A stretch of DNA of 32,000 nt, taken from the NCBI RefSeq assembly GCF_008065095.1, contig NZ_CP042911.1, forward strand, positions 5,160,001 to 5,192,000, in the 5' to 3' direction. The stretch comes from Gemmata obscuriglobus (GTDB lineage: Bacteria; Planctomycetota; Planctomycetia; Gemmatales; Gemmataceae). Positions 2,231-14,185 of this stretch are shown here, in pieces (position 1 is the first letter of the stretch; each line of letters begins with the position of its first letter). A model generated the notes under the pieces. The model saw only the letters and a program-made list of their open reading frames with translations, did not search any database and was not told where the DNA came from. Both the position numbers and the translations under genes were made by a program.

Positions 2231-2250
2231 CCGCGCCTCCGGCTGGTCTT

Positions 2251-2341
2251 GCCGAACGTAAAGCTCACCTGCACCGCCATCACACGATGAGCGGTGCGTC
2301 CCGAATCAGCCGGCGGTGTCAGGTGCAGCGCCGGGTTCGGC
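2251..2341 (-). repeat. attC-like site, class A
   Basis: Class A palindrome: gccgaac..cacctgcaccgcc|loop|ggcggtgTcaggtg..gttcggc. Confidence 0.8.
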
Positions 2342-2698
2342 TCGCTCACGTCCGCGGTTCCGGGGCACACGCCCCGCGCCGCGCATCTGCGGATGCCCGC
2401 GGCACCGATGCGGCCGAGCGGAGCACCACCGACCCCACGCGCCGTGTCGCGGCCCATCGGAGGCCGGCCACCACCGCACCTCGCGGCGATGAGCCGCGCC
2501 GACCACCGGCGGGCACCACGCGGAGCACCCCCGACCCGAACCGCCGTGTCCCCACCCGCATCCCGGCCACGCCCAACCGCACCTCGCGGCGACGAGCCGC
2601 GCCCGCGCCCACCGGCACTCTGCGGAGCCCGACGCGCGGGGTTCACCCACGCGGACCACACGCACACCGCCGCACGGGCGCTCCAGCACGCGAGGGTG
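2342..2698 (-). repeat. ORF-less repeat cassette family R (2 internal units)
   Basis: Head, then 2 x ~102-nt unit (gcggagcaccaccgac..ccgtgtcc..cgcacctcgcggcgRYgagccgcgcc), then the long tail. There is no frame conserved with other copies. Confidence 0.8.
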
Positions 2699-2789
2699 GC
2701 CGAACAAATAGCTCACCTGCACCGCCCCCTCCCAGGGAGCGATGCGTCACAAACTCGCGGGCGGTGTCAGGTGCAGCGCCGGGTTCGGC
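2699..2789 (-). repeat. attC-like site, class A
   Basis: Class A palindrome with a variant loop (ccctcccagggagcgatgcgtcacaaactcgcg). Confidence 0.8.
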
Positions 2790-3147
2790 TCGATGCCCTC
2801 GGCGGTTCCGAGGTGGCACGCTCAGCATCGCGGCTCCGCGGAAGCCCGCCCACCGTCGCGGCCGAGCGGAGCACCACCGACCCACCCGCCGTGTCCCGGC
2901 CCATTGGAGGCTGGCACCAACCGCACCTGGCGGCGACGAGCCGCGCCAACCACCAGCGGGCGCCACGCGGAGCACCACCGACCCGAACCACCGTGTCCCC
3001 ACGCGCCGCCGGCCACGCCCAACCGCACCTCGCGGCGGCGAGCCGCGCCAGACACGACCGGCACCCCGCGGAACCCGACACAAGGGTTTCACCACCGCGG
3101 ACCACACGCCTCGCACCGCCGCACGCGCACTCATGCACGCGATGGTT
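2790..3147 (-). repeat. ORF-less repeat cassette family R (2 units)
   Basis: Same architecture as 2342-2698. Confidence 0.8.
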
Positions 3148-3238
3148 GCCGAACGAACAGCTCACCTGCACCGCCATCATACCGTCAGCGTTGCGTCCCA
3201 GACCAGATGGCGGTGTCAGGTGCAGCGCCGGGTTCGGC
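3148..3238 (-). repeat. attC-like site, class A
   Basis: Class A palindrome: gccgaac..cacctgcaccgcc|loop|ggcggtgTcaggtg..gttcggc. Confidence 0.8.
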
Positions 3239-3596
3239 TCGCTCACCACCGCGGTTCCGGGCCACGGGCCGAGCGTCGCGCATCCGCGGAGCCCGTGCCA
3301 CCGGTGCGGGCGTGCGGAGCACCACCGACTCGACGCACCGTGTCGCGGCCCACCGGAGGCCACCCACCACCGCCACGCGCGGCGATGAGCCGCGCCCGGC
3401 ACCCACGGGCACCACGCGGAGCACCACCGACTCGAACCGCCGTGTCCCCACGCGCCCCCGGCCACGCCCACCCGCACCTCGCGGCGACGAGCCGCGCCAG
3501 CCCCGCCCGGCCCCACGCGGAGCACCACACGTGGGGTTCACCCACGCGGACCACACGCACACCACCGCCGCACGCGCGCTCAGGAACGCGAGGGTG
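3239..3596 (-). repeat. ORF-less repeat cassette family R (2 units)
   Basis: Same architecture as 2342-2698. Confidence 0.8.
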
Positions 3597-3687
3597 GCCG
3601 AACATAAAGCTCACCTGCACCGCCATCATACCGTCAGCAACGCGTCACAAATCAGCGGGCGGTGTCAGGTGCAGCGCCGGGTTCGGC
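3597..3687 (-). repeat. attC-like site, class A
   Basis: Class A palindrome: gccgaac..cacctgcaccgcc|loop|ggcggtgTcaggtg..gttcggc. Confidence 0.8.
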
Positions 3688-3704
3688 ATCTGCGCAGCCC
3701 CCAG

Positions 3705-4136
3705 CTACCCGCCGTTGACCTCGGCCGCCACGACCCGACCATCCGGGCCGAAGTGAACGTACAGGAAGGCGTCGTCGAAGCCGTATGGGCCGAGGCCGCT
3801 CCAGCATCCCAGCCAGTACACCCACGTCTCCGGGTGGTCCAGTCGAACGCCGTACCCGTCCACCGGCCCCCGCGGGTCACGCGACGGTGGCTCGCCCTCG
3901 CCCAGCAGTTCCCGCACACGCTCTTTGGGCGTCCCAGCGGGCAGGTGGCGGATGGCGTCACGGGCCATCGGCCCCCGCCCCCGCTCGTCGGCGGCCGCCC
4001 ACGCCGCCGGGCTGAATGGGCGGTCGTCGAACGGGTCGAGATACCGGTCGAGCGCGACGAACCCGGCCACGCACCCGCGGGCCAACAGCAACGCGGCCAG
4101 GGCGAGCAAGCCGACGACACACTTCCACCGCCGCAT
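3705..4136 (-). CDS. secreted/lipoprotein-like cassette protein (143 aa)
   Basis: ATG 4136 has GAGG 9 nt upstream and lies 18 nt after attC 4154-4244. The N-terminus MRRWKCVVGLLALAALLLARGC is signal-peptide-like with a Cys. PAGTPKERVRELLGEGEP weakly recalls BamE/SmpA-OmlA small lipoproteins. It has its own stop. Confidence 0.7.
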   Translation of the reverse strand: MRRWKCVVGLLALAALLLARGCVAGFVALDRYLDPFDDRPFSPAAWAAADERGRGPMARDAIRHLPAGTPKERVRELLGEGEPPSRDPRGPVDGYGVRLDHPETWVYWLGCWSGLGPYGFDDAFLYVHFGPDGRVVAAEVNGG

Positions 4137-4153
4137 CTCGCACTGCCTCTGTT

Positions 4154-4244
4154 GCCGAACGAACAGCTCACCTGCACCGCCATCACCGGATGAGCGATGC
4201 GATCCAAACTACATGGCGGTGTCAGGTGCAGCGCCGGGTTCGGC
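4154..4244 (-). repeat. attC-like site, class A
   Basis: Class A palindrome, identical to 12271-12361. Confidence 0.8.
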
Positions 4245-4251
4245 GTCTGGG

Positions 4252-4707
4252 CTACCCCCGCCAGACCACCTGCACGCCGGCAAGCTCGATGCCGCCTGGC
4301 CCGGCGGCGAGTTGCCCGGCCTTGCGGTTAAGCAGGGCCGGCCCGAAGCACTCGCCGAACCCGACCCGCTCCCCGCAGTGCAGGAAGCTGACGTACGGCC
4401 AGCGGTAGAACGACCCCCGCACCTTCTCGGGGGCGTCTCGCCAGCCGAGCAACCGGCCGGGCCGGCCGCACTCCCGCACCCCGGCGTCCGTCACCTCCCA
4501 CCACTGGAAGGTGCTGCCGTGGTCGAACTGCCCGCGCTCCAGGTCGCCGTCCGCGACTTGGTAGATGTACAGCGCGTCGAACGCGGCGAGGTCGGCGACG
4601 CGGACCCCGAATGAGTCGGCCACGTAGTCGAGGAAACGCGGCGTGCGGTGCCACGACCAGACGTCGGCCAGTGCCTCAGCGACCGAACGCGACGGCTGCG
4701 GCTCCAT
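4252..4707 (-). CDS. hypothetical cassette protein family X (151 aa), copy 1 of 3
   Basis: ATG 4707 follows CGAGGG, 21 nt after attC 4728-4818. Its own TAG lies 7 nt before attC 4154-4244. The protein is identical to 10840..11295 and 12369..12824. Confidence 0.75.
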   Translation of the reverse strand: MEPQPSRSVAEALADVWSWHRTPRFLDYVADSFGVRVADLAAFDALYIYQVADGDLERGQFDHGSTFQWWEVTDAGVRECGRPGRLLGWRDAPEKVRGSFYRWPYVSFLHCGERVGFGECFGPALLNRKAGQLAAGPGGIELAGVQVVWRG

Positions 4708-4727
4708 CGGTCGAGCGCCCTCGGGTG

Positions 4728-4818
4728 GCCGAACAAACAGCTCACCTGCACCGCCACCATCGGATGAGCGATGCGTCCCAGATCAGATGGCGGTGTCAGG
4801 TGCAGCGCCGGGTTCGGC
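4728..4818 (-). repeat. attC-like site, class A
   Basis: Class A palindrome, identical to 12845-12935. Confidence 0.8.
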
Positions 4819-5151
4819 TTCTGCGCCCCGCGCCGCGCATCCGCGGAGCCCGCCCACCGACGCGGCCGAGCGGAGCCACCACCGACCCGCACCACCGTGC
4901 CGCGGCACACCGGTGGCCGCCCACCACCGACACCCGCGGCGATGAGCCGCGCCCGGCACCCACGGGCACCACGCGGAGCACCACCGCCACGAACCGCCGT
5001 GTCCCCCCCCGCCACCGGCCACGCCCACCGCAAGCTCGCGGCGACGAGCCGCGCCGGTCGCACTCGGGCACCACGCGGAGCCCGATACTCGCCGTTTACC
5101 ACCGCGGACCACACGCACACCACCGCACGCGCCATCGAGCGGCCTCGGGGT
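4819..5151 (-). repeat. ORF-less repeat cassette family R (2 units, short tail)
   Basis: Short tail type (ttctgcgccccgcgccgcgcatccgcggagc..). About the first 75 nt are identical to 12936-13267. Confidence 0.8.
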
Positions 5152-5242
5152 GCCGAACAACAAGCTCACCTGCACCGCCACGTCCCGAGCCGCGATGCGT
5201 CCCGAATCAGCGGGCGGTGTCAGGTGCAGCGCCGGGTTCGGC
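5152..5242 (-). repeat. attC-like site, class A
   Basis: Class A palindrome: gccgaac..cacctgcaccgcc|loop|ggcggtgTcaggtg..gttcggc. Confidence 0.8.
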
Positions 5243-5251
5243 GCGACCTCC

Positions 5252-5809
5252 TCAACCGAACTTGGCCTTCCGCTCCACAGGGGTCAGGCACCGATAGCAT
5301 ACCTCGCGCTGCGGGTCATCCTCGCGTGCCAGCGTCGGGGCACCGCACCGCTGGCATAGGTAGGCACGCCGCCCGACCTCCCACGGCACCGACGGGTCGA
5401 ATCCGCCCCGCTCTGCGTAGTACCGGGCGGCCCGCACCACCAGCTCCACGTCGCGGCAGATGTGCCGCTCACGGTCCCCGAACCCCTGCTCGATGAGCGG
5501 GCCATAGATCTCCACGTCCCGGTCGCCGCCGGCCGGGTCCTGGAACCGCCGCTGCAGGTAGCCGCCGTGGGTGCCCGCCAGCCAGTACACCCCGTCGCCA
5601 CCGGACACCTCGAACCGCTCGCAGAACTGGTCGTATTCGTGGCACGCCTCGTCCTCGGTCGGCCACAGGATCAGGATGGGGTGGGTCCGGCGGTCCAGCC
5701 GGCGGATCGCGGTCTCGATTGTCTCCCAGGACGGACGCACGGCCTTCTCCCTGCGATCCCGTCGCCCGTCCTGCAGGTAGGAGAGCGTTTCCAGCACCTT
5801 CGCGTGCAT
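5252..5809 (-). CDS. hypothetical cassette protein (185 aa) with C-terminal CxxC..CxxC pair
   Basis: ATG 5809 follows GAGGGGGAG, 17 nt after attC 5826-5917. CQRCG...CYRC lies near the C-terminus. Its own stop is 9 nt before attC 5152-5242. Confidence 0.75.
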   Translation of the reverse strand: MHAKVLETLSYLQDGRRDRREKAVRPSWETIETAIRRLDRRTHPILILWPTEDEACHEYDQFCERFEVSGGDGVYWLAGTHGGYLQRRFQDPAGGDRDVEIYGPLIEQGFGDRERHICRDVELVVRAARYYAERGGFDPSVPWEVGRRAYLCQRCGAPTLAREDDPQREVCYRCLTPVERKAKFG

Positions 5810-5825
5810 CGGCTCCCCCTCGGTT

Positions 5826-5917
5826 GCCGAACAATGAAGCTCACCTGCACCGCCATCATCGGATGAGCAATGCGTTCCAAGTCAGCCGGCGGTGTCAGGT
5901 GCAGCGCCGGGTTCGGC
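5826..5917 (-). repeat. attC-like site, class A
   Basis: Class A palindrome, 92 nt. Confidence 0.8.
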
Positions 5918-5924
5918 TCTGTCC

Positions 5925-6302
5925 TCAGCGCGGTCGGCGCATGACGACGAGAGTGCGTCCTCCGCTCGCGGTGCCCAAGCTCACGACCAGTTGAGCGTAG
6001 GCCGGGTCGCCCTGCAGCCGTACTTCTTCGATCACCGTGCCGTCGTCGTCCTGTGCCCGACAGATCATCGACCCACCTGGACCGAGACATGAACCGCCGG
6101 CAAGGGATTTGCGGTATGGTCCCGGCAATCGGGGCGGGGCCACGACCGCCCACCCATCGTATCCGGCCACGACGGCTTCCAGGGAGACGAACGGTCGCTC
6201 CTGTCGTGTGGCCGATTCCGCGTGCCGGCCCCAGGGTGACAGCCAATAACCGGCACACCCCGCACCGAGTAACACGACGAACACAAGCCACCGCACCCGC
6301 AT
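5925..6302 (-). CDS. small lipoprotein-like cassette protein (125 aa)
   Basis: ATG 6302 follows AAGGGGG, 18 nt after attC 6320-6410. MRVRWLVFVVLLGAGC is a lipobox-like signal. Its own stop is 7 nt before attC 5826-5917. The track ORF 5925..6674 extends upstream through the attC and is not used. Confidence 0.65.
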   Translation of the reverse strand: MRVRWLVFVVLLGAGCAGYWLSPWGRHAESATRQERPFVSLEAVVAGYDGWAVVAPPRLPGPYRKSLAGGSCLGPGGSMICRAQDDDGTVIEEVRLQGDPAYAQLVVSLGTASGGRTLVVMRRPR

Positions 6303-6319
6303 CCGATCCCCCTTCCGGT

Positions 6320-6410
6320 GCCGAACATAAAGCTCACCTGCACCGCCATCACCGGATGAGCGGTGCGTCCCAGAACAGATGGCGGTGTCAGGTGCAGCGC
6401 CGGGTTCGGC
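6320..6410 (-). repeat. attC-like site, class A
   Basis: Class A palindrome: gccgaac..cacctgcaccgcc|loop|ggcggtgTcaggtg..gttcggc. Confidence 0.8.
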
Positions 6411-6746
6411 TTCTGCGCTGGGATGTGCGGTTCCGCGGAGCCCGCGCCCGCGTCGCGGTTCCGCGGAGCCACCACCGACCCGCACCACCGTGCCGCGGCA
6501 CACCGGGGGCCACCCACCACGGCACCGCGCGGCGATGAGCCGCGCCGCCCACCGACCGGTATCGGCGGAGCACCACCGATCCGACGCGCCGTGTCCCCAC
6601 GCGCCTCCGCCCACGCCCAACCGCACCTCGCGGCGATGAGCCGCGCCAGACACGACCGGCACCACGCGGAGCACGACACGCGAGGTTCACCCATGCGGAC
6701 CACACGCTCAGCGCCGCCGCACGCGTGCTCACGCGCCCTCTGGGTG
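6411..6746 (-). repeat. ORF-less repeat cassette family R (2 units, short tail)
   Basis: Same architecture. The head carries an SD-like AGAGGG. Confidence 0.8.
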
Positions 6747-6836
6747 GCCGAACAGAAAGCTCACCTGCACCGCCAAGATGGAGTGAGCGACACAACGGCG
6801 GCTGATGGCGGTGTCAGGTGCAGCGCCGGGTTCGGC
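6747..6836 (-). repeat. attC-like site, class A (minor loop type)
   Basis: Class A stems with the minor loop family (aagatggagtgagcgacacaacggcggctgat). Confidence 0.8.
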
Positions 6837-7196
6837 TCGCTCGCCTCCGCGGTTCCGGGCGACACGCCGAGCTTGGCGCATCCGCGGAACCCGCGGCACC
6901 GGTGCGGCCGAGCGGAGCCCCACCGACTCGAATCGCCGTGTCGCGGCCCACCGGTGGCCACCCATCACCGCACCTCGCGGCGACGAGCCGCGCCCGCCCT
7001 GACGCGCGCCACGCGGAGCACCACCGACCCGAACCGCCGTGTCCCCACCCGCACCCCGGCCACGCCCAACCACACCTCGCGGCGACGAGCCGCGCCCGCC
7101 CCGACCGGCACCACGCGGAGCCACCACCGACGCGTGGGCGTCACCTTCGCGGACCACACGCCCACCACCGCACGCGCGATCCAGAACGCGAAGGTG
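6837..7196 (-). repeat. ORF-less repeat cassette family R (2 units)
   Basis: Same architecture. Confidence 0.8.
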
Positions 7197-7287
7197 GCCG
7201 AACATAAAGCTCACCTGCACCGCCATCACACGATGAGCGGTGCGTCCCAACTCAGCCGGCGGTGTCAGGTGCAGCGCCGGGTTCGGC
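7197..7287 (-). repeat. attC-like site, class A
   Basis: Class A palindrome: gccgaac..cacctgcaccgcc|loop|ggcggtgTcaggtg..gttcggc. Confidence 0.8.
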
Positions 7288-7643
7288 TCGATGCCCTCGG
7301 CGGTTCGGGGTCGCACGCCGAGCGCCGCGCATCCGCAGAGCCCGCGGCACCGACGCGGCTGGGCGGAGCACCACCGACCCGACGCGCCGTGTCCCGGCAC
7401 ACCGGAGGCCGCCCACCACCGCACCTCGCGGCGATGAGCCGCGCCGACCACCCACGGGCCACACGCGGAGCACCACCGACCCGCACCGCCGTGTCCCGAC
7501 ACATCGGAGGCCACGCCCAACCGCAAGCTCGCGGCGATGAGTCGCGCCAGACCCGACCGGCACCACGCGAAGCCCGACGCGCGCGGTTCACCACCGCGGA
7601 CCACACGCACACCGCCGCACGCGCGCTCCTGCACGCGATGGTT
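7288..7643 (-). repeat. ORF-less repeat cassette family R (2 units)
   Basis: Same architecture. Confidence 0.8.
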
Positions 7644-7734
7644 GCCGAACATACAGCTCACCTGCACCGCCATCATCGGATGAGCGGTGCGTCACAAGTC
7701 AGCGGGCGGTGTCAGGTGCAGCGCCGGGTTCGGC
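7644..7734 (-). repeat. attC-like site, class A
   Basis: Class A palindrome: gccgaac..cacctgcaccgcc|loop|ggcggtgTcaggtg..gttcggc. Confidence 0.8.
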
Positions 7735-8075
7735 TTCGTCGCGGGCAGTTGCGGTTCCGCGGAGCCCGCGCCCGCGTCGCACATCCGCGGAGCCACCACC
7801 GACCCGCACCACCGTGCCGCGGCACACCGGTGGCCGCCCACCACCGACACACGCGGCGATGAGCCGCGCCGACCACCGGTGGGCACCACGCGGAGCACCA
7901 CCGACCCGCACCGCCGTGTCCCCATGCGCGGCTGGCCACGCCCAACCACACCTCGCGGCGACGAGCCGCGCCCGCCCCGACCGGCACCACGCGGAGCCAC
8001 CACTGACGAGCGGGGCTTACTCACGCGGACCACACGCCCACCACCACCGCACGCCCGCTCCAGCACGCGAAGGTG
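7735..8075 (-). repeat. ORF-less repeat cassette family R (2 units, short tail)
   Basis: Same architecture. Confidence 0.8.
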
Positions 8076-8166
8076 GCCGAACGTAAAGCTCACCTGCACC
8101 GCCATCACACGATGAGCGGTGCGTCACAACTCAGCGGGCGGTGTCAGGTGCAGCGCCGGGTTCGGC
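8076..8166 (-). repeat. attC-like site, class A
   Basis: Class A palindrome: gccgaac..cacctgcaccgcc|loop|ggcggtgTcaggtg..gttcggc. Confidence 0.8.
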
Positions 8167-8607
8167 CTCTTGGGCCGCCACTCTGCCGGACGCGAGTAGT
8201 TGCCGGAGAGCATGGCAACCGCTCATGGTCGCCTCGCGAAGCTCGACGGCGAACCCATCGAGTGTGGTCGCCGACCGTACCGGCAGCCCGAGTTGATCGG
8301 GGAGATACGATTCGGCATCCCATACAGCACCACGAACGACTTGGCTGGCTGCGCCCGTCTGGATCTTCCACTGATCTTCAGACCAGTCCACCGTTAGCCG
8401 GAGATTGTAGCGGCGGCAGACGGCAGTATCGACCTCGACCCCGATCTCTAAATACCGCCAGGCGTGCATACTGATGCGGATATACGGCTCATGTTGGTCG
8501 GCGACGAGGCCACCATCGGCGAGGTCGTTCGCCAACTGCAGGAGCGTGTGTTGGGCCTGCGTTAACGCACCCAAGAACGCGACGACGTTGCGGCTGCCCT
8601 CGTCCAC
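8131..8607 (-). CDS. hypothetical cassette protein (158 aa including attC tail)
   Basis: ORF track 8131..8607. GTG 8607 follows AGAGG, 18 nt after attC 8625-8715. It reads into attC 8076-8166, ending AEPGAAPDTAR. Confidence 0.65.
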   Translation of the reverse strand: MDEGSRNVVAFLGALTQAQHTLLQLANDLADGGLVADQHEPYIRISMHAWRYLEIGVEVDTAVCRRYNLRLTVDWSEDQWKIQTGAASQVVRGAVWDAESYLPDQLGLPVRSATTLDGFAVELREATMSGCHALRQLLASGRVAAQEAEPGAAPDTAR

Positions 8608-8624
8608 CGCTTACGCCTCTGGTT

Positions 8625-8715
8625 GCCGAACAAGTAGCTCACCTGCACCGCGAGGTCCCGGGCCGCGGTGCGTCATAAGCCGCGCGGCGGTGTCAGGTGC
8701 AGCGCCGGGTTCGGC
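8625..8715 (-). repeat. attC-like site, class A
   Basis: Class A palindrome with a variant loop (gaggtcccgggccgcggtgcgtcataagccgc). Confidence 0.8.
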
Positions 8716-8725
8716 ATGCCGCGCC

Positions 8726-9187
8726 TCACCACGTCAGCCGCTCGATCCGCACCAGCGGGGCGGCCGCGACCATCCCGACACCGGCCGCCGCGAGGGCGGC
8801 CACCATGCCCACCCGGCGGCGGGTCCACCGGCCCGACGTGTGGGCATCCACAGCCAGCCCGACCCCGACAGCGCCCGCGGCGGCGAACGTTAGGTTGTAC
8901 GCCAGGGCGGCCTGGCGGGTGATCCGGCCGGTGCGGGCCATCCGATCGGTCGGCAGGCGGAACGGGGCGGTCTCCAAGGCGGACGGGATAAGTCTGACGT
9001 CGTCCGACTCCCACCGGTCGGCTCGCCAGATTGCCGGGAACCCGAACAACTCGACGATCTCCGCCCCCGGCGGTTGATCCGGCCACCGGCCGCCGATCGA
9101 CGGGGCCCACGACCAGACGTTCAGAAGCAGCAGGACGGCCGCCGTGGCGACCGTGGCGAGCTTCGCCTCCCCAGTCCATCGCCGCAT
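8726..9187 (-). CDS. membrane protein cassette (153 aa)
   Basis: ATG 9187 follows GGGAGGG, 28 nt after attC 9215-9305. Hydrophobic segments are ATVATAAVLLLLNVW and MVAALAAAGVGMVAAA. It has its own stop. The first 20 residues of track ORF 8726..9247 (MMAVQVSFMFGGSWRPREGQ) are the translated attC arm (MMAVQVSFMFG) plus the short leader, so I trimmed the start to ATG 9187. Confidence 0.6.
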   Translation of the reverse strand: MRRWTGEAKLATVATAAVLLLLNVWSWAPSIGGRWPDQPPGAEIVELFGFPAIWRADRWESDDVRLIPSALETAPFRLPTDRMARTGRITRQAALAYNLTFAAAGAVGVGLAVDAHTSGRWTRRRVGMVAALAAAGVGMVAAAPLVRIERLTW

Positions 9188-9214
9188 CTGGCCCTCCCGT
9201 GGTCGCCAACTACC

Positions 9215-9305
9215 GCCGAACATAAAGCTCACCTGCACCGCCATCATACAGTCAGCAATGCGTCACAAACTAGCGGGCGGTGTCAGGTGCAGCGCCGGGT
9301 TCGGC
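9215..9305 (-). repeat. attC-like site, class A
   Basis: Class A palindrome: gccgaac..cacctgcaccgcc|loop|ggcggtgTcaggtg..gttcggc. Confidence 0.8.
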
Positions 9306-9538
9306 TTCTGCGCGGGCAGTTGCGATTCCGCGGAGCCCGCGCTCGTACCGCGCATCGCGGAGCCACCACCGCCGACCCGCGCTACCGTGTCCCACCCGCA
9401 CCCGGCCGCGACCAACCGCACCTCGCGGCGACGAGCCGCGCCCGCAACCACCGGCACCACGCGGAGCCCGACATACGGGCTTTACCACCGCGGACCACAC
9501 GCCCACGCGCCGCACGGGCGCTCATGCGCCCTCTGGGT
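9306..9538 (-). repeat. ORF-less repeat cassette family R (1 unit)
   Basis: A single unit, 233 nt in total. The head has AGAGGGCGCATGAGCGC. Confidence 0.8.
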
Positions 9539-9629
9539 GCCGAACATACAGCTCACCTGCACCGCCATCACCGGATAAGCGGTGTGTCACAAATCAGCCG
9601 GCGGTGTCAGGTGCAGCGACCGGTTCGGC
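9539..9629 (-). repeat. attC-like site, class A
   Basis: Class A palindrome with a variant 3' spacer (cagcgaccggttcggc). Confidence 0.8.
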
Positions 9630-10046
9630 ATGCCTTTGGAGCCAACCCCGCGCCTCCGCGACAACCGACCGGCCCCAAGCTGCCACCGCCGCCTCGCCGT
9701 ACAACCCGTCCCACGTCACTTCGTGAGGGCGGCCCGTTAGGTCGCCGTAGTCGACGTAGAGCCCGTACAGGTGGTGGTAGTCGTGGGACTCACACGCATA
9801 CCGCCACGGATACGACCGCATCTGGAGCTGCACGAGGTAGGGCCATCGCACCTCGGCCTCGATCACCTCCAACCCCGCCCACGGGTCCACTAGCCCGCTG
9901 GCGATGCGCGACAGGTGATGCCGTAACAGCAGCCACGCCGCCGCATCCGCACGGGCAAGGCCCTCCGCGCTGAGCGTTTCCAAGCCGCGATTGGCCGCGG
10001 CGAGGGTTGCTTGCGCCTCGTTGATCGACAGTGCTCCAACTTCCAC
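9594..10046 (-). CDS. hypothetical cassette protein (150 aa including attC tail)
   Basis: GTG 10046 follows CGAGG, 19 nt after attC 10065-10155. It is in frame with track ORF 9594..10157 and ends AEPVAAPDTAG inside variant attC 9539-9629. Confidence 0.6.
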   Translation of the reverse strand: MEVGALSINEAQATLAAANRGLETLSAEGLARADAAAWLLLRHHLSRIASGLVDPWAGLEVIEAEVRWPYLVQLQMRSYPWRYACESHDYHHLYGLYVDYGDLTGRPHEVTWDGLYGEAAVAAWGRSVVAEARGWLQRHAEPVAAPDTAG

Positions 10047-10064
10047 GCCGCGAGACCTCGGGTT

Positions 10065-10155
10065 GCCGAACAAAGAGCTCACCTGCACCGCCATCACCGG
10101 ATGAGCGGTAAGTCCCAAGTCAGATGGCGGTGTCAGGTGCAGCGCCGGGTTCGGC
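10065..10155 (-). repeat. attC-like site, class A
   Basis: Class A palindrome: gccgaac..cacctgcaccgcc|loop|ggcggtgTcaggtg..gttcggc. Confidence 0.8.
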
Positions 10156-10160
10156 ATGCC

Positions 10161-10727
10161 TTATCCTCTCCGCCGACTTGGCGGAAGCGGTGGCTCCTCA
10201 CTCTTCGGGTCTGGCTCCTCGTCGTCGGCGAGCGGCATGCCCATGACAAACCTGCCTGACTCCCAGACCGACGACTCCAGATCTCGCGGTTTGCGAGCGA
10301 GCCGCGGATCGACAGCCACGCACTCCCCGAGGGACGCATGCGTCTGAGCGATCTCGATGCTTGAGCAGAAGAACACCTTCTGCCGGCACTGGCCGCAGAA
10401 GCGGACGCCCTCCTCGGCCGTTGGCTGGAGTTGCTCCCACTGCTTCGGACAGCGGAACCGGAACTCGACCCCACAGCCCTCGACCGGGGCACGACTGATC
10501 GACGCGAGCCAGTCAGGATCAACACCGAGACTGGCCTCCCGCAGGCGACCCTGCATCGCCTCCCGGCACGGATCGGAGGGGGCAAGCGCGGCGAATTCGC
10601 ACTCGGCGCGGAGGAAGCCGCCTCCGGCCCGGTCGTGTTCGTCCAGCCAGTCGGCGTAGACCAATCGCGGCAGGTCGTCCGTCGGGGCAGCTCGAATCGC
10701 TGCCAGGAATGCAGCCTCGTCGCTCAT
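10161..10727 (-). CDS. TIGR02996 (repeat-companion, Gemmata-type) N-terminal domain protein (188 aa)
   Basis: ATG 10727 follows AGAGGG. The N-terminus MSDEAAFLAAIRAAPTDDLPRLVYADWLDEHDR matches the TIGR02996 signature as I remember it. A Cys-rich middle region follows (CPKQWEQL..CGQCRQKVFFC). It has its own stop. Confidence 0.8.
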   Translation of the reverse strand: MSDEAAFLAAIRAAPTDDLPRLVYADWLDEHDRAGGGFLRAECEFAALAPSDPCREAMQGRLREASLGVDPDWLASISRAPVEGCGVEFRFRCPKQWEQLQPTAEEGVRFCGQCRQKVFFCSSIEIAQTHASLGECVAVDPRLARKPRDLESSVWESGRFVMGMPLADDEEPDPKSEEPPLPPSRRRG

Positions 10728-10740
10728 ACGCCCTCTGGTT

Positions 10741-10832
10741 GCCGAACAATGAAGCTCACCTGCACCGCCATCATCGGATGAGCGGTGCGTCCCGCATCAG
10801 CCGGCGGTGTCAGGTGCAGCGCCGGGTTCGGC
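10741..10832 (-). repeat. attC-like site, class A
   Basis: Class A palindrome, 92 nt. Confidence 0.8.
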
Positions 10833-10839
10833 GTCTGGG

Positions 10840-11295
10840 CTACCCCCGCCAGACCACCTGCACGCCGGCAAGCTCGATGCCGCCTGGCCCGGCGGCGAGT
10901 TGCCCGGCCTTGCGGTTGAGCAGGGCCGGCCCGAAGCACTCGCCGAACCCGACCCGCTCCCCGCAGTGCAGGAAGCTGACGTACGGCCAGCGGTAGAACG
11001 ACCCCCGCACCTTCTCGGGGGCGTCTCGCCAGCCGAGCAACCGGCCGGGCCGGCCGCACTCCCGCACCCCGGCGTCCGTCACCTCCCACCACTGGAAGGT
11101 GCTGCCGTGGTCGAACTGCCCGCGCTCCAGGTCGCCGTCCGCGACTTGGTAGATGTACAGCGCGTCGAACGCGGCGAGGTCGGCGACGCGGACCCCGAAT
11201 GAGTCGGCCACGTAGTCGAGGAAACGCGGCGTGCGGTGCCACGACCAGACGTCGGCCAGTGCCTCAGCGACCGAACGCGACGGCTGCGGCTCCAT
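10840..11295 (-). CDS. hypothetical cassette protein family X (151 aa), copy 2 of 3
   Basis: The protein is identical to 4252..4707. The one nucleotide difference I saw is synonymous (gttaag vs gttgag on +). The track fuses it to the upstream cassette (10840..11685) because attC 11316-11406 has no stop in that frame. Confidence 0.75.
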   Translation of the reverse strand: MEPQPSRSVAEALADVWSWHRTPRFLDYVADSFGVRVADLAAFDALYIYQVADGDLERGQFDHGSTFQWWEVTDAGVRECGRPGRLLGWRDAPEKVRGSFYRWPYVSFLHCGERVGFGECFGPALLNRKAGQLAAGPGGIELAGVQVVWRG

Positions 11296-11315
11296 CGGTC
11301 GAGCGCCCTCGGGTG

Positions 11316-11406
11316 GCCGAACAAATAGCTCACCTGCACCGCCAGGATCGAGTGAGCACCACAACGCAGATCCGATGGCGGTGTCAGGTGCAGCGCCGGG
11401 TTCGGC
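11316..11406 (-). repeat. attC-like site, class A (minor loop type, no stop in tail frame)
   Basis: Class A stems with the minor loop (aggatcgagtgagcaccacaacgcagatccgat). It lacks the TGA that normally ends the AEPGAAPDTA frame. Confidence 0.8.
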
Positions 11407-11685
11407 CTCTGCGACCGCGCCCAGGTGAGCCCGCCCCCACGCGACCGCCTCCTCGGCTGACCGGAACACCCGCACCCCGGCACGGCACATCGCCCCCGGG
11501 GCGGCCTCGGCAAGCGCGTTGTCCTCGATGAGCAGCCACAGCGGGAGCCACACGTCTCCGTCCGGCTGCTTGAGCCGCGCCCAAGTGTGGAGCCGGCCGC
11601 CGATCAGGCAGTACCGGGCGAGCGGCAACTCGCGGGTGAGGTCGGCCACCACCTCGGCGTCGCTCCACTCGCCACGCTTCCGCAC
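11407..11685 (-). CDS. hypothetical cassette protein (93 cassette-encoded codons), 3' end undefined because it reads through the attC
   Basis: GTG 11685 follows GGAGGG, 18 nt after attC 11703-11793. It has no stop of its own, enters attC 11316-11406 in the usual AEPGAAPDTA frame, and meets no stop there, so it continues in frame to 10840. Confidence 0.55.
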
Positions 11686-11702
11686 CCCGATGCCCTCCGG
11701 GT

Positions 11703-11793
11703 GCCGAACAATAAGCTCACCTGCACCGCCATCATCGGATGAGCGGAGCGTCGCAGTCTAGCGGGCGGTGTCAGGTGCAGCGCCGGGTTCGGC
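11703..11793 (-). repeat. attC-like site, class A
   Basis: Class A palindrome: gccgaac..cacctgcaccgcc|loop|ggcggtgTcaggtg..gttcggc. Confidence 0.8.
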
Positions 11794-11806
11794 GTGCCTT
11801 TGTGGG

Positions 11807-12181
11807 CTATCGCACATACTGGTACACCAACCACCTCGGCCGCTCGCCCCGCACCAAGTACTCGGCGGCCGCCGCGAAGGCACGCTCCGCCCGCAGGCAC
11901 GACTCCGGCGGGGCCGGCGTCGGCTCCTCGCACGACAGCGCCATCCGCTGGGCCTCGGTCGCCGGCGCGGGGCCATCCGGGTCGGTGGCCCGGTACTCGC
12001 TCCACGCCCCATCAAGGAACATCAGGACCGCTACCCCGCCCGCCTTACCGAGCCAGAAGCACGGCTCGATGTCGCGGGCTGGCAGACTGAGCAGCCGACC
12101 CAGCCAAGTCCGATGACGTGTGCCGCGGTCGAGGAGTACCCACAGATCGCACGCCTCGGCCGCCGCCGCTCGCGTCAACAC
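11807..12181 (-). CDS. hypothetical cassette protein (124 aa as tracked, probably 149 aa from a non-canonical start at 12256)
   Basis: ORF track 11807..12181 (GTG). The same frame stays open and protein-like upstream (IDGASYIVEWDDTETRLPDTAAVGE). ATT at 12256 lies 7 nt after GGAG and 15 nt after attC 12271-12361, the normal cassette start position. Confidence 0.6.
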   Translation of the reverse strand: MLTRAAAAEACDLWVLLDRGTRHRTWLGRLLSLPARDIEPCFWLGKAGGVAVLMFLDGAWSEYRATDPDGPAPATEAQRMALSCEEPTPAPPESCLRAERAFAAAAEYLVRGERPRWLVYQYVR

Positions 12182-12270
12182 CTCTCCGACGGCGGCCGTA
12201 TCGGGCAGTCGGGTTTCGGTGTCGTCCCACTCGACGATGTACGATGCCCCGTCAATCGCGCCACTCCGCG

Positions 12271-12361
12271 GCCGAACGAACAGCTCACCTGCACCGCCAT
12301 CACCGGATGAGCGATGCGATCCAAACTACATGGCGGTGTCAGGTGCAGCGCCGGGTTCGGC
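12271..12361 (-). repeat. attC-like site, class A
   Basis: Class A palindrome, identical to 4154-4244. Confidence 0.8.
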
Positions 12362-12368
12362 GTCTGGG

Positions 12369-12824
12369 CTACCCCCGCCAGACCACCTGCACGCCGGCAA
12401 GCTCGATGCCGCCTGGCCCGGCGGCGAGTTGCCCGGCCTTGCGGTTAAGCAGGGCCGGCCCGAAGCACTCGCCGAACCCGACCCGCTCCCCGCAGTGCAG
12501 GAAGCTGACGTACGGCCAGCGGTAGAACGACCCCCGCACCTTCTCGGGGGCGTCTCGCCAGCCGAGCAACCGGCCGGGCCGGCCGCACTCCCGTACCCCG
12601 GCGTCCGTCACCTCCCACCACTGGAAGGTGCTGCCGTGGTCGAACTGCCCGCGCTCCAGGTCGCCGTCCGCGACTTGGTAGATGTACAGCGCGTCGAACG
12701 CGGCGAGGTCGGCGACGCGGACCCCGAATGAGTCGGCCACGTAGTCGAGGAAACGCGGCGTGCGGTGCCACGACCAGACGTCGGCCAGTGCCTCAGCGAC
12801 CGAACGCGACGGCTGCGGCTCCAT
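12369..12824 (-). CDS. hypothetical cassette protein family X (151 aa), copy 3 of 3
   Basis: The protein is identical to 4252..4707, with one synonymous difference (cccgcac vs cccgtac on +). It is flanked by attCs identical to those of copy 1. Confidence 0.75.
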   Translation of the reverse strand: MEPQPSRSVAEALADVWSWHRTPRFLDYVADSFGVRVADLAAFDALYIYQVADGDLERGQFDHGSTFQWWEVTDAGVRECGRPGRLLGWRDAPEKVRGSFYRWPYVSFLHCGERVGFGECFGPALLNRKAGQLAAGPGGIELAGVQVVWRG

Positions 12825-12844
12825 CGGTCGAGCGCCCTCGGGTG

Positions 12845-12935
12845 GCCGAACAAACAGCTCACCTGCACCGCCACCATCGGATGAGCGATGCGTCCCAGAT
12901 CAGATGGCGGTGTCAGGTGCAGCGCCGGGTTCGGC
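12845..12935 (-). repeat. attC-like site, class A
   Basis: Class A palindrome, identical to 4728-4818. Confidence 0.8.
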
Positions 12936-13267
12936 TTCTGCGCCCCGCGCCGCGCATCCGCGGAGCCCGCCCACCGACGCGGCCGAGCGGAGCCACCACC
13001 GACCCGACCCGCCGTGTCCCGGCACACCGGAGGCCACGCCCACCGCCACACGCGGCGACGAGCCGCGCCAACCACACACGGGCACCACGCGGAGCACCAC
13101 CGAACCGAAACGCCGTGTCCCGGCACACCGGAGGCCACGCCCACCGCACCTCGCGGCGACGAGCCGCGCCAGCCCCAACCGGCACCACGCGAAGCCCGAC
13201 ACCCGGGGTTCACCACCGCGGACCACACGCCCACCGCCGCCCGCGCGCCCTGATGCACGCGAGGGTG
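12936..13267 (-). repeat. ORF-less repeat cassette family R (2 units, short tail)
   Basis: Same architecture. Confidence 0.8.
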
Positions 13268-13359
13268 GCCGAACAATCAAGCTCACCTGCACCGCCATCA
13301 CACGATGAGCGGTGCGCCCCGAATCAGCGGGCGGTGTCAGGTGCAGCGCCGGGTTCGGC
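13268..13359 (-). repeat. attC-like site, class A
   Basis: Class A palindrome, 92 nt, same as 22237-22328. Confidence 0.8.
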
Positions 13360-13367
13360 CTGCCTTG

Positions 13368-13751
13368 CTACCCGCGAACCGCGTGCAGCCCAGTGATGCG
13401 GGTGACGACGCCCTCGGCGACCCGCCGCCCGCCCTCGTGGCAGTAGAACCGGGCGCCGGGGGCAATCCGGCCGCGATGCACCTCGGCCCGCATCTCATCC
13501 ATCACGACCGTCATGCGGGCGGACAACTCCACGCCTACCGGCAGTCCATGATCGGTCGCCAGGCTCTGTCCGTCAGCGGCGAAGAAGTCCGGCCAGATCA
13601 TGTACAGGCTCGGTGGGGTTGGCCCGTCGTCGGCATAGGCGAAGTCCCACCGGATGCCGTTGAACGCCCGCGTCCGCCGCCCACCCTCCTCCGGGCCGTA
13701 CACCCGGATGGCGGCCTCGAAGTCGTCGGGTGGGTAGAGACCTCCGCCCAT
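13368..13751 (-). CDS. hypothetical cassette protein family Y (127 aa), copy 1 of 2
   Basis: ATG 13751 follows GGAGGG, 18 nt after class B attC 13769-13921. It has its own stop. The C-terminal FYCHEGGRRVAEGVVTRI loosely recalls EF-Tu-type beta-barrel motifs (weak). Confidence 0.7.
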   Translation of the reverse strand: MGGGLYPPDDFEAAIRVYGPEEGGRRTRAFNGIRWDFAYADDGPTPPSLYMIWPDFFAADGQSLATDHGLPVGVELSARMTVVMDEMRAEVHRGRIAPGARFYCHEGGRRVAEGVVTRITGLHAVRG

Positions 13752-13768
13752 CGGTGCGCCCTCCGGTT

Positions 13769-13921
13769 GCCGAACCAGGAGCTGAGCTGCAAGCCGCCCC
13801 TCTCAGGGCGGTCTCCCCTTGCTCCCGCGACGGCTTGTCAGCTCCAGCGGGGGGGTCGGCCGACGGCCGCCTCCTTCCGCCAGAGGATGAGTGAGCGTTG
13901 CAGCTCAGCTCCTGGTTCGGC
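13769..13921 (-). repeat. attC-like site, class B composite (153 nt)
   Basis: The inner 92-nt attC homologue is 13769-13860: gccgaac-cagga-gctgagctg-caagccgcc / loop / gacggcttg-T-cagctc-C-agc-ggggg-gGtcggc (inner box carries a point change). It is followed by a 36-nt spacer and a perfect inverted copy of the first 25 nt (cttgcagctcagctcctggttcggc). Confidence 0.7.
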
Positions 13922-14094: not shown

Positions 14095-14185
14095 GCCGAA
14101 CGAACAGCTCACCTGCACCGCCACATCCCGAGCAGCGATGCGTCATAAATCAGCGGGCGGTGTCAGGTGCAGCGCCGGGTTCGGC
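14095..14185 (-). repeat. attC-like site, class A
   Basis: Class A palindrome: gccgaac..cacctgcaccgcc|loop|ggcggtgTcaggtg..gttcggc. Confidence 0.8.

What the first reader, a model, noticed from the sequence alone, without database searches (positions are those of the whole stretch)
8131..8166. The attC supplies a fixed C-terminal tail (AEPGAAPDTA-x) and the stop codon to 14 of 36 cassette ORFs, always in the same frame
Seen in the sequence: 14 cassette ORFs have no stop of their own and run into the downstream attC. They end at 581, 1639, 8131, 9594, 15543, 17535, 19315, 20063, 26451, 27859, 28915, 29430 and 29806, and the fourteenth is the read-through ORF starting at 11685. All 14 enter the attC in the same frame, GCC GAA CCC GGC GCT GCA CCT GAC ACC GCC NNN TGA. 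All therefore gain the tail A-E-P-G-A-A-P-D-T-A-x and stop at a TGA provided by the conserved loop motif (aaTCAg on the + strand). The other two frames would give RTRRCT-stop or PNPALHLTPP.... Among ORFs I judge real, the only one that reaches either of them is the 5' frame of the apparently frameshifted 1639-2230 cassette, which ends RTRRCT. The RTRRCT frame would be an equally short extension. Established knowledge: stop codons inside attC sites are known for some integron cassettes. Inference: the strict frame bias suggests one of two things. Either the tail is functional or specifically tolerated (a tag, linker or degradation signal), or cassette genesis fixes the phase between ORF and attC.
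Basis: partly seen in the sequence, partly recalled or inferred. Interest (0 to 1): 0.7.

Follow-up and report, generated by a model that had tools for sequence, protein, structure and literature searches.

The report
attC-encoded tail on integron cassette proteins
In the chromosomal integron of the planctomycete Gemmata, about a third of the gene cassettes have no stop codon of their own and read into the recombination site (attC), almost always in the one frame that adds a short, unstructured 11-residue tail and a stop codon; this looks like a built-in fail-safe kept by selection, not a rule of how cassettes are made.

Summary
The window is a Gemmata obscuriglobus integron array on the - strand, with 57 near-identical 90-92 nt attC sites. 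All 14 listed ORFs (13 distinct, otherwise unrelated) enter the attC as GCC GAA CCC..., gain AEPGAAPDTA-x and stop at +34..36.

In 231 attCs from three or more Gemmata genomes (190 distinct cassettes), ORFs without their own stop split 50:2:2 by phase (p=9e-20). ORFs with their own stop use all phases (48:35:35 overall; 6:6:6 in the window), so cassette genesis does not fix the phase.

Homologues show that c56, c5 and one related-locus ORF are full-length proteins extended past their native C-terminus, not truncated pseudogenes. The +34 stop is present in 48/50 read-in attCs against 79/140 others.

Phase 1 gives long extensions (median 37 codons). Phase 2 gives the equally short (R/S/G)RTRRCT but is almost never used, and this is unexplained.

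Best reading: a tolerated tail plus an attC-borne back-up stop, so that losing the cassette's own stop is harmless only in phase 0. This is a new quantitative variant of the known overlap between cassette genes and attC.

The parts
1..32000 (-). Integron cassette array: 57 typical attC sites and 56 complete cassettes of 303-1153 bp, all in one orientation
8076..8166 (-). attC of cassette c41, 91 nt. R'' GCCGAAC 8166-8160; spacer 8159-8155; L'' 8154-8137; variable terminal structure 8136-8104; L' 8103-8088; R' GTTCGGC 8082-8076
8134..8166 (-). 11 codons of the attC 5' arm read in phase 0, GCC GAA CCC GGC GCT GCA CCT GAC ACC GCC CGC = AEPGAAPDTAR
8131..8133 (-). TGA stop supplied by the start of the attC variable region (+34..36)
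8131..8607 (-). c41 ORF, 158 aa, no stop of its own. Annotated as GobsT_43840 hypothetical protein of G. obscuriglobus; no other homologue found
29806..30249 (-). c3 read-in ORF, 147 aa, phase 0, tail AEPGAAPDTAR
29430..29732 (-). c4 read-in ORF, 100 aa, phase 0, tail ...AM
28915..29364 (-). c5 read-in ORF, 149 aa, complete SUKH-1/SMI1_KNR4 domain, phase 0. Homologues end at the attC junction
27859..28308 (-). c7, identical duplicate of c5
26451..26750 (-). c9 read-in ORF, 99 aa, phase 0
20063..20626 (-). c20 read-in ORF, 187 aa, phase 0
19315..19971 (-). c21 read-in ORF, about 218 aa (start uncertain), SUKH-1 domain, phase 0
17535..17765 (-). c24 read-in ORF, 76 aa, phase 0
15543..15800 (-). 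c27 read-in ORF, 85 aa, phase 0, weaker coding signature; second ORF of its cassette
10840..11685 (-). c35 ORF. It enters the attC (11406-11316) in phase 0, but that attC reads ATC GGA at +31..36 (no stop), so it runs through and fuses in frame with the c36 ORF (281 aa)
9594..10046 (-). c38 read-in ORF, 150 aa, phase 0, tail AEPVAAPDTAG from an attC variant
1639..2230 (-). c54. Coding frame is phase 2 from 2230 to about 1915, then phase 0 to the attC: a frameshifted gene whose intact form was a phase-0 read-in. The 5' frame runs on to RTRRCT*
581..1051 (-). c56 read-in ORF, 156 aa: a full-length member of a family of 135-137 aa proteins, plus YWRDSAE, plus AEPGAAPDTAM

Best explanation
The attC of this Gemmata chromosomal integron doubles as a fail-safe translation terminator that works in only one of its three frames.

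Cassettes here are packed tightly. An SD-like GAGGG lies about 10 nt after the crossover site, the start codon about 23 nt after it, and the ORF's stop is usually within 10 nt of the attC. Any loss of that stop therefore sends ribosomes into the invariant 5' arm of the attC (R''-spacer-L''). The three frames then differ:
- Phase 0 gives 11 small, polar, acidic residues (AEPGAAPDTA-x) that are predicted to be disordered, followed by a T(G/A)(A/G) at the first bases of the variable loop.
- Phase 1 is open through the whole attC and beyond (median 37 extra codons, partly hydrophobic).
- Phase 2 gives a strongly basic, cysteine-containing (R/S/G)RTRRCT.

Only the phase-0 product persists. In phase 0 an ORF can lose its own stop at no cost. 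The ORF is then locked in that phase, because any later frame change near its end is harmful. ORFs that keep their own stop can drift between phases through small indels in the spacer. Read-in ORFs therefore accumulate in phase 0 like a ratchet.

Shown: the frame bias, the full-length nature of three read-in proteins, the dependence on the attC stop, and the uniform phase of ORFs with their own stop.
Inferred: that selection on the protein product causes the bias, and the ratchet dynamics.
For: 1. Read-in ORFs in distinct cassettes split 50:2:2 by phase (binomial p=9e-20). The bias repeats in three genomes: 12:0:0, 26:1:1 and 11:1:0.
2. ORFs with their own stop are spread over the phases: 6:6:6 in the window, 48:35:35 overall and 37:22:21 for stops within 100 nt of the attC.
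3. The read-in proteins that could be compared are complete.
   - c56 aligns end to end with more than 300 homologues of 135-137 aa that stop one residue after ...WPRD. It then continues with YWRDSAE plus the tail, with TGG at the codon where the stop of most homologues falls.
   - Homologues of c5 end within 1-5 residues of the attC junction, and its SUKH domain is complete.
   - In the family ending ...HVRGCWVVDLVLGKE*, four members stop at TAG in phase 0 and one at TAA in phase 1. One member (L007) has lost the stop and reads ...LGRGFVSE-AEPSAAPDATR*.
4. The attC stop is kept where it is used: 48/50 read-in attCs against 79/140 others (p=5e-8). Among phase-0 ORFs the read-in:own-stop ratio is 48:18 when the attC has the stop and 2:19 when it lacks it (p=3e-7).
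5. Extension lengths have medians of 11, 37 and 7 codons for phases 0, 1 and 2.
6. The AlphaFold2 model of c56 has pLDDT 76-97 for residues 10-139 and below 50 for residues 140-156.
7. Two adjacent paralogues with 31% identity are both read-in, so the state is long-lived.
8. Homologous ORFs with their own stop sit in different phases, showing phase drift.
9. [quoted passage not shown]
Against: - Phase 2 also has a conserved stop (TGA at +21..23 in 136 of 190 attCs) and an even shorter tail, yet it is used only 2 times against 16 ORFs with their own stop. Phase 0 has 48 against 18 (p=3e-6). That RTRRCT is harmful is an assumption; nothing here tests it.
- Total phase-0 use among ORFs ending near the attC (87 against 24 and 23) needs either the ratchet or a filter at cassette birth. 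Neither is observed directly.
- The attC-arm variants are preferentially synonymous in frame 0 (54% against 22% and 12%). This would also fit a functional peptide.
- The native C-terminus could be placed for only three read-in ORFs. c41 itself has no homologue outside G. obscuriglobus. For c38, the two homologues also read through the same region.
- There are no expression or proteomic data.
Confidence: 0.6

Rival explanations
1. Reading into the attC is positively selected for expression. Ribosomes that translate the 5' arm up to the hairpin apex keep the attC stem-loop of the mRNA open and shorten the untranslated stretch. This relieves the polar effect on the next cassette. Phase 0 is the frame that carries ribosomes furthest into the arm and still stops.
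For: - In class 1 integrons, translating up to the attC raised expression of the next cassette 2-fold, and untranslated stretches lowered it (PMC11511950).
- attC stem-loops hinder translation, and short ORFs inside the attC relieve this (PMC8876359).
- The attC is a strong hairpin.
- The next cassette's SD lies about 10 nt after R'.
- 73% of phase-0 ORFs whose attC has the stop have given up their own stop.
Against: - A ribosome stopping at +23 in phase 2 would unwind nearly the same arm, so this does not explain 48:18 against 2:16.
- The high read-in share in phase 0 can be reached by neutral stop loss alone. This is my own estimate, not a computed result.
- The simple scan does not flag the attCs as intrinsic terminators.
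- There are no expression data for Gemmata.
Confidence: 0.15
2. The tail is a functional C-terminal tag, for stability, localisation or interaction. The integron places it on a third of its cassette proteins, and the attC arm is under protein-coding selection.
For: - There is a strict single frame, although a second short frame exists.
- attC-arm variants are 54% synonymous in frame 0, against 22% and 12% in the other frames and about 30% expected. Variable sites are +9, +15, +21 and +27, all third codon positions.
- Tail-like codons persist at the 3' end of a c56 homologue after the rest of the attC has gone (L055).
- The read-in state is retained in paralogues with 31% identity.
Against: - The synonymous bias is the same in attCs that are never translated (p=0.52). 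It rests on a few subtype lineages with compensatory changes in L'.
- The tail is appended to unrelated, otherwise complete proteins whose many homologues lack it.
- It is predicted to be disordered.
- It has no hydrophobic or basic anchor like known sorting signals, and no ssrA-like end.
- About half of phase-0 ORFs, and all ORFs in phases 1 and 2, do without it.
Confidence: 0.1
3. Cassette genesis joins the ORF to the attC in a fixed phase. For example, the 3' end of the captured template could be set by the ribosome. The ORFs with their own stop in other phases would then come from a second route or from later indels.
For: - Total phase-0 use (87) is well above phases 1 and 2 (24 and 23) among ORFs ending near the attC.
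- Both cassette junctions are very tight, and conserved sequence extends outside the attC: A at -2, no T at -5..-1, recurrent (T)AGCAAAGGCAC and (T)AGCCCAGAC upstream, and GAGGG downstream.
Against: - ORFs with their own stop are spread evenly over the phases.
- In the three ORFs whose native end could be placed, the native C-terminus is intact. In c56 and L007 it is followed by a translated former spacer. This is what stop loss predicts, not joining at a truncated end.
- Homologues occupy different phases.
Confidence: 0.07
4. The pattern is an artefact of ORF calling. In 70% G+C DNA long open frames are common, and the reader simply picked the frame that is open through the attC.
For: Many cassettes have open frames of more than 60 codons in two or three phases.
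Against: - Frames were chosen by the GC1/GC2/GC3 signature upstream of the attC only, with the same thresholds for all phases.
- Phase 2 is equally open up to +23.
- Public annotation and homologues confirm c41, c56, c38 and c5 as proteins.
- The c56 fold is predicted with high confidence.
Confidence: 0.02

Closest known systems
Cassette genes of mobile (class 1) integrons whose stop codon overlaps or lies inside the attC (59-base element)
   Same: The recombination site begins at or before the end of the coding sequence, and cassettes are tightly packed. PMC11511950 states that in most resistance cassettes the attC overlaps the stop codon, and that translating up to the attC helps downstream expression.
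   Different: Those attCs are all different, so no shared peptide arises and no frame rule has been described. Here one near-invariant attC gives the same 11-residue tail to about a third of the ORF cassettes. The overlap is 36 nt; the ACID database allowed at most 15 bp of overlap. The frame use is 50:2:2.
[quoted passage not shown]
   Same: An integron recombination site supplies a translation signal (a stop codon) in a fixed frame, with consequences for translation of the neighbouring gene (PMC8876359).
   Different: ORF-11 is a leader peptide in attI that couples translation to the first cassette. Here the attC ends the cassette protein itself and lengthens it.
Sedentary chromosomal integrons with taxon-specific, homogeneous attCs, including a Planctomycetes attC model (Ghaly et al. 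2021, PMC8352920)
   Same: A large array of highly similar attCs, specific to one taxon, carrying mostly proteins of unknown function.
   Different: That work does not report the ORF/attC phase or a shared tail. A full-text search found no paper that mentions both Gemmata and attC.
Back-up (tandem) in-frame stop codons downstream of genes (from my own knowledge, not checked in the papers)
   Same: A second in-frame stop a few codons downstream limits the damage from read-through or stop loss.
   Different: Here the back-up stop belongs to a mobile recombination site, is shared by all cassettes, and has become the only stop for many genes.
Palindromic repeats tolerated inside or at the ends of genes in a preferred frame, such as Rickettsia palindromic elements and mycobacterial MIRUs (from my own knowledge, not checked in the papers)
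   Same: A repeated hairpin-forming element is translated in the frame or frames that give a harmless peptide or overlap stop and start codons. Selection filters the frame.
   Different: Those are insertions of selfish or intergenic repeats. Here the element is the functional attC of each cassette, and only its 5' arm is translated.

Membership tests
Integron attC site | Inverted core sites R'' (RYYYAAC) and R' (GTTRRRY) at the two ends | tested here: met
   GCCGAAC ... GTTCGGC is present in 56 of 57 copies. The AAC/GTT triplets are invariant. One position of each box departs from the R/Y consensus, but the two boxes remain complementary.
Integron attC site | Imperfect internal palindrome L''/L' with extrahelical bases on the folded strand, a variable central region, and length of about 57-141 nt | tested here: met
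   The sites are 90-92 nt long. The DNA fold of 8076-8166 gives a 7-bp R box, an unpaired spacer, an L box with two bulged bases and a variable terminal stem-loop, dG -28.5 kcal/mol, z -4.9.
Integron cassette array | Several attCs in one orientation, separated by short promoterless cassettes, with ORFs co-oriented and the attC at their 3' end | tested here: met
   There are 57 attCs in 32 kb and the cassettes are 303-1153 bp. All ORFs with a coding signature are on the attC strand.
Complete integron (as opposed to an attC cluster without integrase) | An intI tyrosine recombinase gene with attI and the Pc promoter next to the array | not testable with these tools
   The window contains only cassettes, and no integrase was seen in L012 upstream of an array. 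A tyrosine recombinase lies next to a c56 homologue in L056 from another genome; this is only a hint.
Integron attC site | Recombination by IntI through the folded bottom strand | not testable with these tools
   Indirect evidence only: identical cassettes occur at several positions (c5=c7; c33=c36=c49; c16 and c31), and cassettes are shared between genomes.
Cassette CDS ending inside the attC | No in-frame stop before R''; the first in-frame stop lies within the attC | tested here: met
   This holds for 14 ORFs in the window and 50 distinct cassettes overall, with the stop at +34..36 in 48 of the 50.
C-terminal sorting or degradation tags (PEP-CTERM-like, LPXTG-like, ssrA-like) | A motif followed by a hydrophobic helix and a basic cluster, or a non-polar ...LAA-type end | tested here: not met
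   The tail AEPGAAPDTA-x has GRAVY -0.78 and net charge -1, has no hydrophobic stretch, and ends in R, G, I, M or V. It is predicted to be disordered. The motifs were compared from memory only.
   Homologues of c56 end 7 residues before the attC. Homologues of c5 end within 1-5 residues of the junction. Relatives of the L007 ORF end 5 residues before it. This could not be tested for c41.

The most novel reading that the evidence does not exclude
The 5' arm of the Gemmata attC is a true dual-purpose element. Besides being the integrase substrate, it has been shaped by protein-level selection to encode a standard C-terminal peptide, and the integron deliberately puts this peptide on a large share of cassette proteins as a tag for stability, localisation or recognition. 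Two things would then have the same cause: the preference of attC variants for changes that are synonymous in frame 0, and the near absence of the equally short phase-2 read-in.
Probability: 0.12. Interest if true: 0.8.

Novelty: new variant of a known kind. Interest (0 to 1): 0.5.

Why it matters
- It shows that a recombination site can act as shared translation punctuation for a whole gene pool. In this integron the attC region supplies the stop and an 11-residue tail at one end of the ORF, and a Shine-Dalgarno-like motif lies just after it at the other end.
- The 50:2:2 frame use is indirect evidence that cassette proteins of a huge, supposedly mostly silent chromosomal integron are translated, and are exposed to purifying selection often enough to police their C-termini.
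- It bears on the open question of how cassettes are made. The ORF/attC phase is not fixed at birth, and at least some read-in cassettes descend from ORFs that had their own stop.
- The common peptide gives a handle for mass spectrometry or antibodies to measure which cassettes are expressed.
- Gene callers and integron annotators that cap ORF/attC overlap at about 15 bp would miscall a third of these genes.

Tried and rejected
- Phase-fixed genesis was rejected as a general rule, because ORFs with their own stop are evenly spread over the phases.
- Truncated pseudogenes were rejected for c56, c5 and the L007 ORF.
- Shared ancestry of the 14 ORFs was rejected. Only c5 and c7 are duplicates, and the other similarities are confined to attC-derived ends.
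- An ORF-calling artefact was rejected.
- 'The frame is chosen only because it has a stop' was rejected. Phase 2 has a conserved TGA in 136 of 190 attCs and is still not used.
- I guessed that c38 arose by a TAA to CAA change at -9. This is not supported: its two homologues also read ...WL(Q/E)RHA... without a stop there.
- I considered the attC as an intrinsic terminator whose formation is blocked by translation. The simple scan does not flag the attCs as terminator-like, so this stays an untested idea.
- The Rfam search of the window found nothing.
- RNAalifold on the repeat unit of the non-coding cassette family gave almost no covariation.
- No integrase gene was found in the locus upstream of a G. 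algarum array.
- c41, the ORF at the finding's own coordinates, has no homologue outside G. obscuriglobus, so its native end cannot be placed.
- Literature searches found no report of an attC frame rule, and no paper that mentions both Gemmata and attC.

Full report
WHAT THE WINDOW IS

Each copy is the 5' arm of a 90-92 nt imperfect palindrome: GCCGAAC-CCGGC-GCTGCACCTGACACCGCC-(variable)-GGCGGTGCAGGTGAGC-(5 nt)-GTTCGGC. The copy at 8076-8166 folds as a canonical attC, with a 7-bp R box, an unpaired spacer, an L box with two bulged bases and a variable terminal structure (dG -28.5 kcal/mol, z -4.9).

The window is therefore a cassette array of an integron, with 56 complete cassettes of 303-1153 bp. 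A scan of one genome per species with the attC 21-mer hit almost only Gemmata and Gemmataceae contigs. The ORF at the finding's coordinates is GobsT_43840 of Gemmata obscuriglobus. Planctomycete chromosomal attCs are a known class (PMC8352920). I found no paper that mentions both Gemmata and attC, and the few that mention G. obscuriglobus and integrons do so only in passing.

CHECK OF THE OBSERVATION

Twenty-one of the 56 cassettes belong to one non-coding repeat family. The other 35 (31 distinct) carry ORFs with the GC1/GC2/GC3 signature of coding DNA.

Fourteen of these ORFs have no in-frame stop before the attC. All 14 enter it as GCC GAA CCC GGC GCT GCA CCT GAC ACC GCC NNN. The fourteenth (11685-) meets an attC that reads ATC GGA instead of NNN TGA, and runs on into the next cassette ORF.

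Two of the 14 are identical duplicates. The 13 distinct proteins share only the tail. The 1639-2230 cassette is indeed frameshifted: its coding signature switches from phase 2 to phase 0 near 1915-1900.

A LARGER SAMPLE

I located 231 attC 5' arms (5 or fewer mismatches) in the window and in 54 related loci. For each I took the open frame of at least 60 codons upstream of the attC with a coding GC signature, using identical rules for all phases. I removed duplicates by the 200 nt upstream of each attC, which left 190 distinct cassettes.

ORFs without their own stop fall 50:2:2 in phases 0:1:2 (p=9e-20). By genome the counts are 12:0:0 (window), 26:1:1 (Gemmata sp. SMAG_U3706) and 11:1:0 (G. 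algarum). The rule also holds for attC subtypes with a different L box, for example AEPGAAPDPAT*.

Of the four exceptions, one is a clean phase-2 case ending ...EARRTRRCT* (L053). One involves a degenerate attC next to a 657-codon gene. One is a phase-1 ORF ending at +43 in a degenerate attC. One is ambiguous.

WHAT THE BIAS IS NOT

It is not a fixed phase at cassette birth. ORFs with their own stop are evenly spread: 6:6:6 distinct types in the window, 48:35:35 overall, and 37:22:21 for stops within 100 nt of the attC. Homologous cassette proteins also sit in different phases.

It is not truncation:
- c56 aligns from end to end with more than 300 homologues of 135-137 aa that stop one residue after ...ERVWPRD. 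c56 continues with YWRDSAE and then AEPGAAPDTAM. Its TGG sits at the codon where the stop of most homologues falls.
- Homologues of the SUKH protein c5 end within 1-5 residues of the attC junction, and its Pfam domain is complete.
- In a family ending ...HVRGCWVVDLVLGKE*, four members stop at TAG in phase 0 and one at TAA in phase 1. One member has lost the stop and reads ...LGRGFVSE-AEPSAAPDATR*.
- The AlphaFold2 model of c56 is confident for residues 10-139 and below pLDDT 50 for residues 140-156.

The tail is therefore an unstructured extension of complete proteins.

WHAT DISTINGUISHES THE FRAMES

Across distinct attCs, the median extension is 11 codons in phase 0, 37 in phase 1 and 7 in phase 2. 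The peptides are:
- Phase 0: AEPGAAPDTA-x, small and polar, net charge -1.
- Phase 1: PNPALHLTPP...MAVQVSFMFG..., which runs on into the next cassette.
- Phase 2: (R/S/G)RTRRCT, net charge +3 to +4, with a cysteine.

The attC stop at +34..36 is present in 48/50 read-in attCs but only 79/140 others (p=5e-8). Among phase-0 ORFs the read-in:own-stop ratio is 48:18 when the attC has that stop and 2:19 when it lacks it (p=3e-7). Dispensing with the cassette's own stop is therefore conditional on the attC-borne stop, and that stop is under selection where it is used. This is indirect evidence that these ORFs are translated to +36.

Phase 1 is excluded simply by the length of the extension. Phase 2 is not. 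With a TGA available at +21..23 it is used 2 times against 16 ORFs with their own stop, compared with 48:18 for phase 0 (p=3e-6). This gap is the part of the phenomenon that I cannot explain from sequence. A harmful basic, cysteine-containing end is the simplest assumption.

MECHANISM PROPOSED

Cassettes here are extremely compact. GAGG or GGAG lies 9-11 nt after the crossover site in most of the 28 (of 35) ORF cassettes that carry it. The start codon is at 22-24 nt in the nine read-in cassettes whose ORF begins at the cassette 5' end, and the cassette's own stops are mostly within 10 nt of R''. Any stop loss therefore sends ribosomes into the invariant 5' arm.

In phase 0 this costs nothing, so the stop decays. 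The ORF is then locked in phase 0. ORFs with their own stop can change phase through indels in the short spacer. Over time this ratchet enriches phase-0 read-ins, which also accounts for the total excess of phase 0 (87 against 24 and 23) without any rule at genesis. Two adjacent paralogues with 31% identity are both read-in, so the state is stable over long times.

The steps shown are the frame bias, the dependence on the attC stop, the completeness of the proteins, and one family with a reconstructed stop loss. The inferred steps are selection against the other two peptides and the ratchet dynamics.

A benefit for expression of the next cassette is plausible. Translation up to the attC raised downstream expression in class 1 integrons (PMC11511950), and attC hairpins hinder translation (PMC8876359). 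This benefit does not by itself discriminate phase 0 from phase 2.

A HINT THAT THE PEPTIDE ITSELF MAY MATTER

Variation among attC 5' arms is concentrated at +9, +15, +21 and +27, all third codon positions of phase 0. 54% of codon changes are synonymous in frame 0, against 22% and 12% in the other frames and about 30% expected.

The pattern is the same in attCs that are never translated. Several of the changes are compensated in L' and define subtype lineages, so the number of independent events is small. I treat this as suggestive only. It is the main support for the more novel reading, that the arm is shaped by protein-level selection or that the tail is a functional tag.

COMPARISON WITH WHAT IS KNOWN

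Overlap of a cassette's stop codon with its attC is standard knowledge for resistance cassettes. Integron sites that supply stop codons are also known, for example attI1 ORF-11.

What is new here:
- One near-invariant attC gives the same 11-residue tail to about a third of the ORF cassettes of a planctomycete chromosomal integron.
- The frame use is almost exclusive (50:2:2).
- The overlap is 36 nt, well beyond the 15 bp that the ACID annotation rules allowed.

I therefore class it as a new variant of a known kind, of moderate interest.

LIMITS

- ORF calls rest on composition, not on expression data.
- Many related loci are fragments of metagenome-assembled genomes.
- Only three read-in proteins could be compared with homologues that show the native end.
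- c41, the ORF under the finding's own coordinates, has no homologue outside G. obscuriglobus.

Noticed in passing
window 7650-8081 (c42), 7203-7649 (c43), 25060-25955 (c11, c12) and 17 other cassettes: 21 of 56 cassettes (37%) are one family with 75-100% identity and 75-78% G+C. Each is built from 1-4 tandem copies of a unit of about 102 nt; 43 units are in the window. The unit has an invariant small hairpin GGCGCGGCTC(G/A)TCGCCGCG. One-nucleotide indels between copies argue against protein coding. There is no Rfam match and almost no covariation. A gene-less cassette family of unknown role.
   Followed up: partly
window 16704-16856, 22738-22890, 23064-23216: Three copies of a second, atypical attC-like element of 153 nt. 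It has perfect 25-nt inverted ends, GCCGAACCAGGAGCTGAGCTGCAAG...CTTGCAGCTCAGCTCCTGGTTCGGC. They split cassettes c16 and c26 (and probably c31) into smaller units that share a 5' segment of about 330 nt.
   Followed up: partly
first 25 nt of most cassettes, e.g. window 8630-8605, 20649-20624, 1075-1050 (- strand): An SD-like GAGG/GGAG lies within 20 nt of the crossover site in 28 of 35 ORF cassettes, mostly 9-11 nt after it. In the nine read-in cassettes whose ORF begins at the cassette 5' end the start codon is at 22-24 nt. Conserved translation signals therefore flank the attC on both sides.
   Followed up: partly
12 nt upstream of each attC, e.g. window 24536-24547, 20736-20747, 12362-12373: Conservation extends upstream of R''. 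There is A at -2 in 50-74% of attCs and almost no T at -5..-1. The motifs (T)AGCAAAGGCAC|GCC, (T)AGCCCAGAC|GCC and GAGTAGCATCGA|GCC recur in unrelated cassettes. The TAG/TAA that serves as the ORF's stop often forms the first three bases of the motif, and read-in ORFs carry CAG or GAG there.
   Followed up: partly
window 10840-11685: The attC after c35 lacks the +34 stop. The ORF therefore reads through the entire attC in phase 0 and fuses in frame with the next cassette ORF, giving a 281-aa two-cassette fusion.
   Followed up: partly
L055 4332-4370; L057 4409-4444: Homologues of c56 (P0031) and c38 (P0223) on contigs without a recognisable attC still end with codons resembling the attC extension and 5' arm. 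In L055 the match is 22/30 to the arm, in phase 0, giving the tail EPGAEADNGSM, with no L'/R' arm following. In L057 the sequence reads GAA AGG CAC GCT GAA... These may be fossil tails of former cassettes.
   Followed up: partly
attC positions +9, +15, +21, +27 (e.g. window 8158, 8152, 8146, 8140): The variable sites of the attC 5' arm are spaced 6 nt apart and all fall on third codon positions of phase 0. 54% of codon changes are synonymous in that frame, against 22% and 12% in the others. The pattern is the same whether or not the arm is translated.
   Followed up: partly
window 29757-30554 (c3) and 17789-18550 (c23): Two otherwise different cassettes begin with the same 5' segment (TTCGGCCCCGCGCCGAGACCCACGGGGGTGGGCGCGATGTCGATAGGG...). 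In c3 the ORF occupies only the last 440 bp. This may be a shared non-coding leader or a fused remnant.
   Followed up: no
L056 1320-2330 and 3590-5083: In another planctomycete-like genome (a 9.3 Mb contig), a c56 homologue with its own stop lies between a tyrosine recombinase gene (Phage_int_SAM_4 + Phage_integrase) and an IS110-family transposase gene. It may be a first cassette next to intI.
   Followed up: no
window: c5=c7 (28866-29380, 27810-28324); c33=c36=c49 (12277-12850, 10747-11321, 4160-4733); c16 and c31: Identical or more than 99% identical cassettes occur at several positions of the array. This is consistent with recent duplication or re-insertion by the integrase.
   Followed up: no
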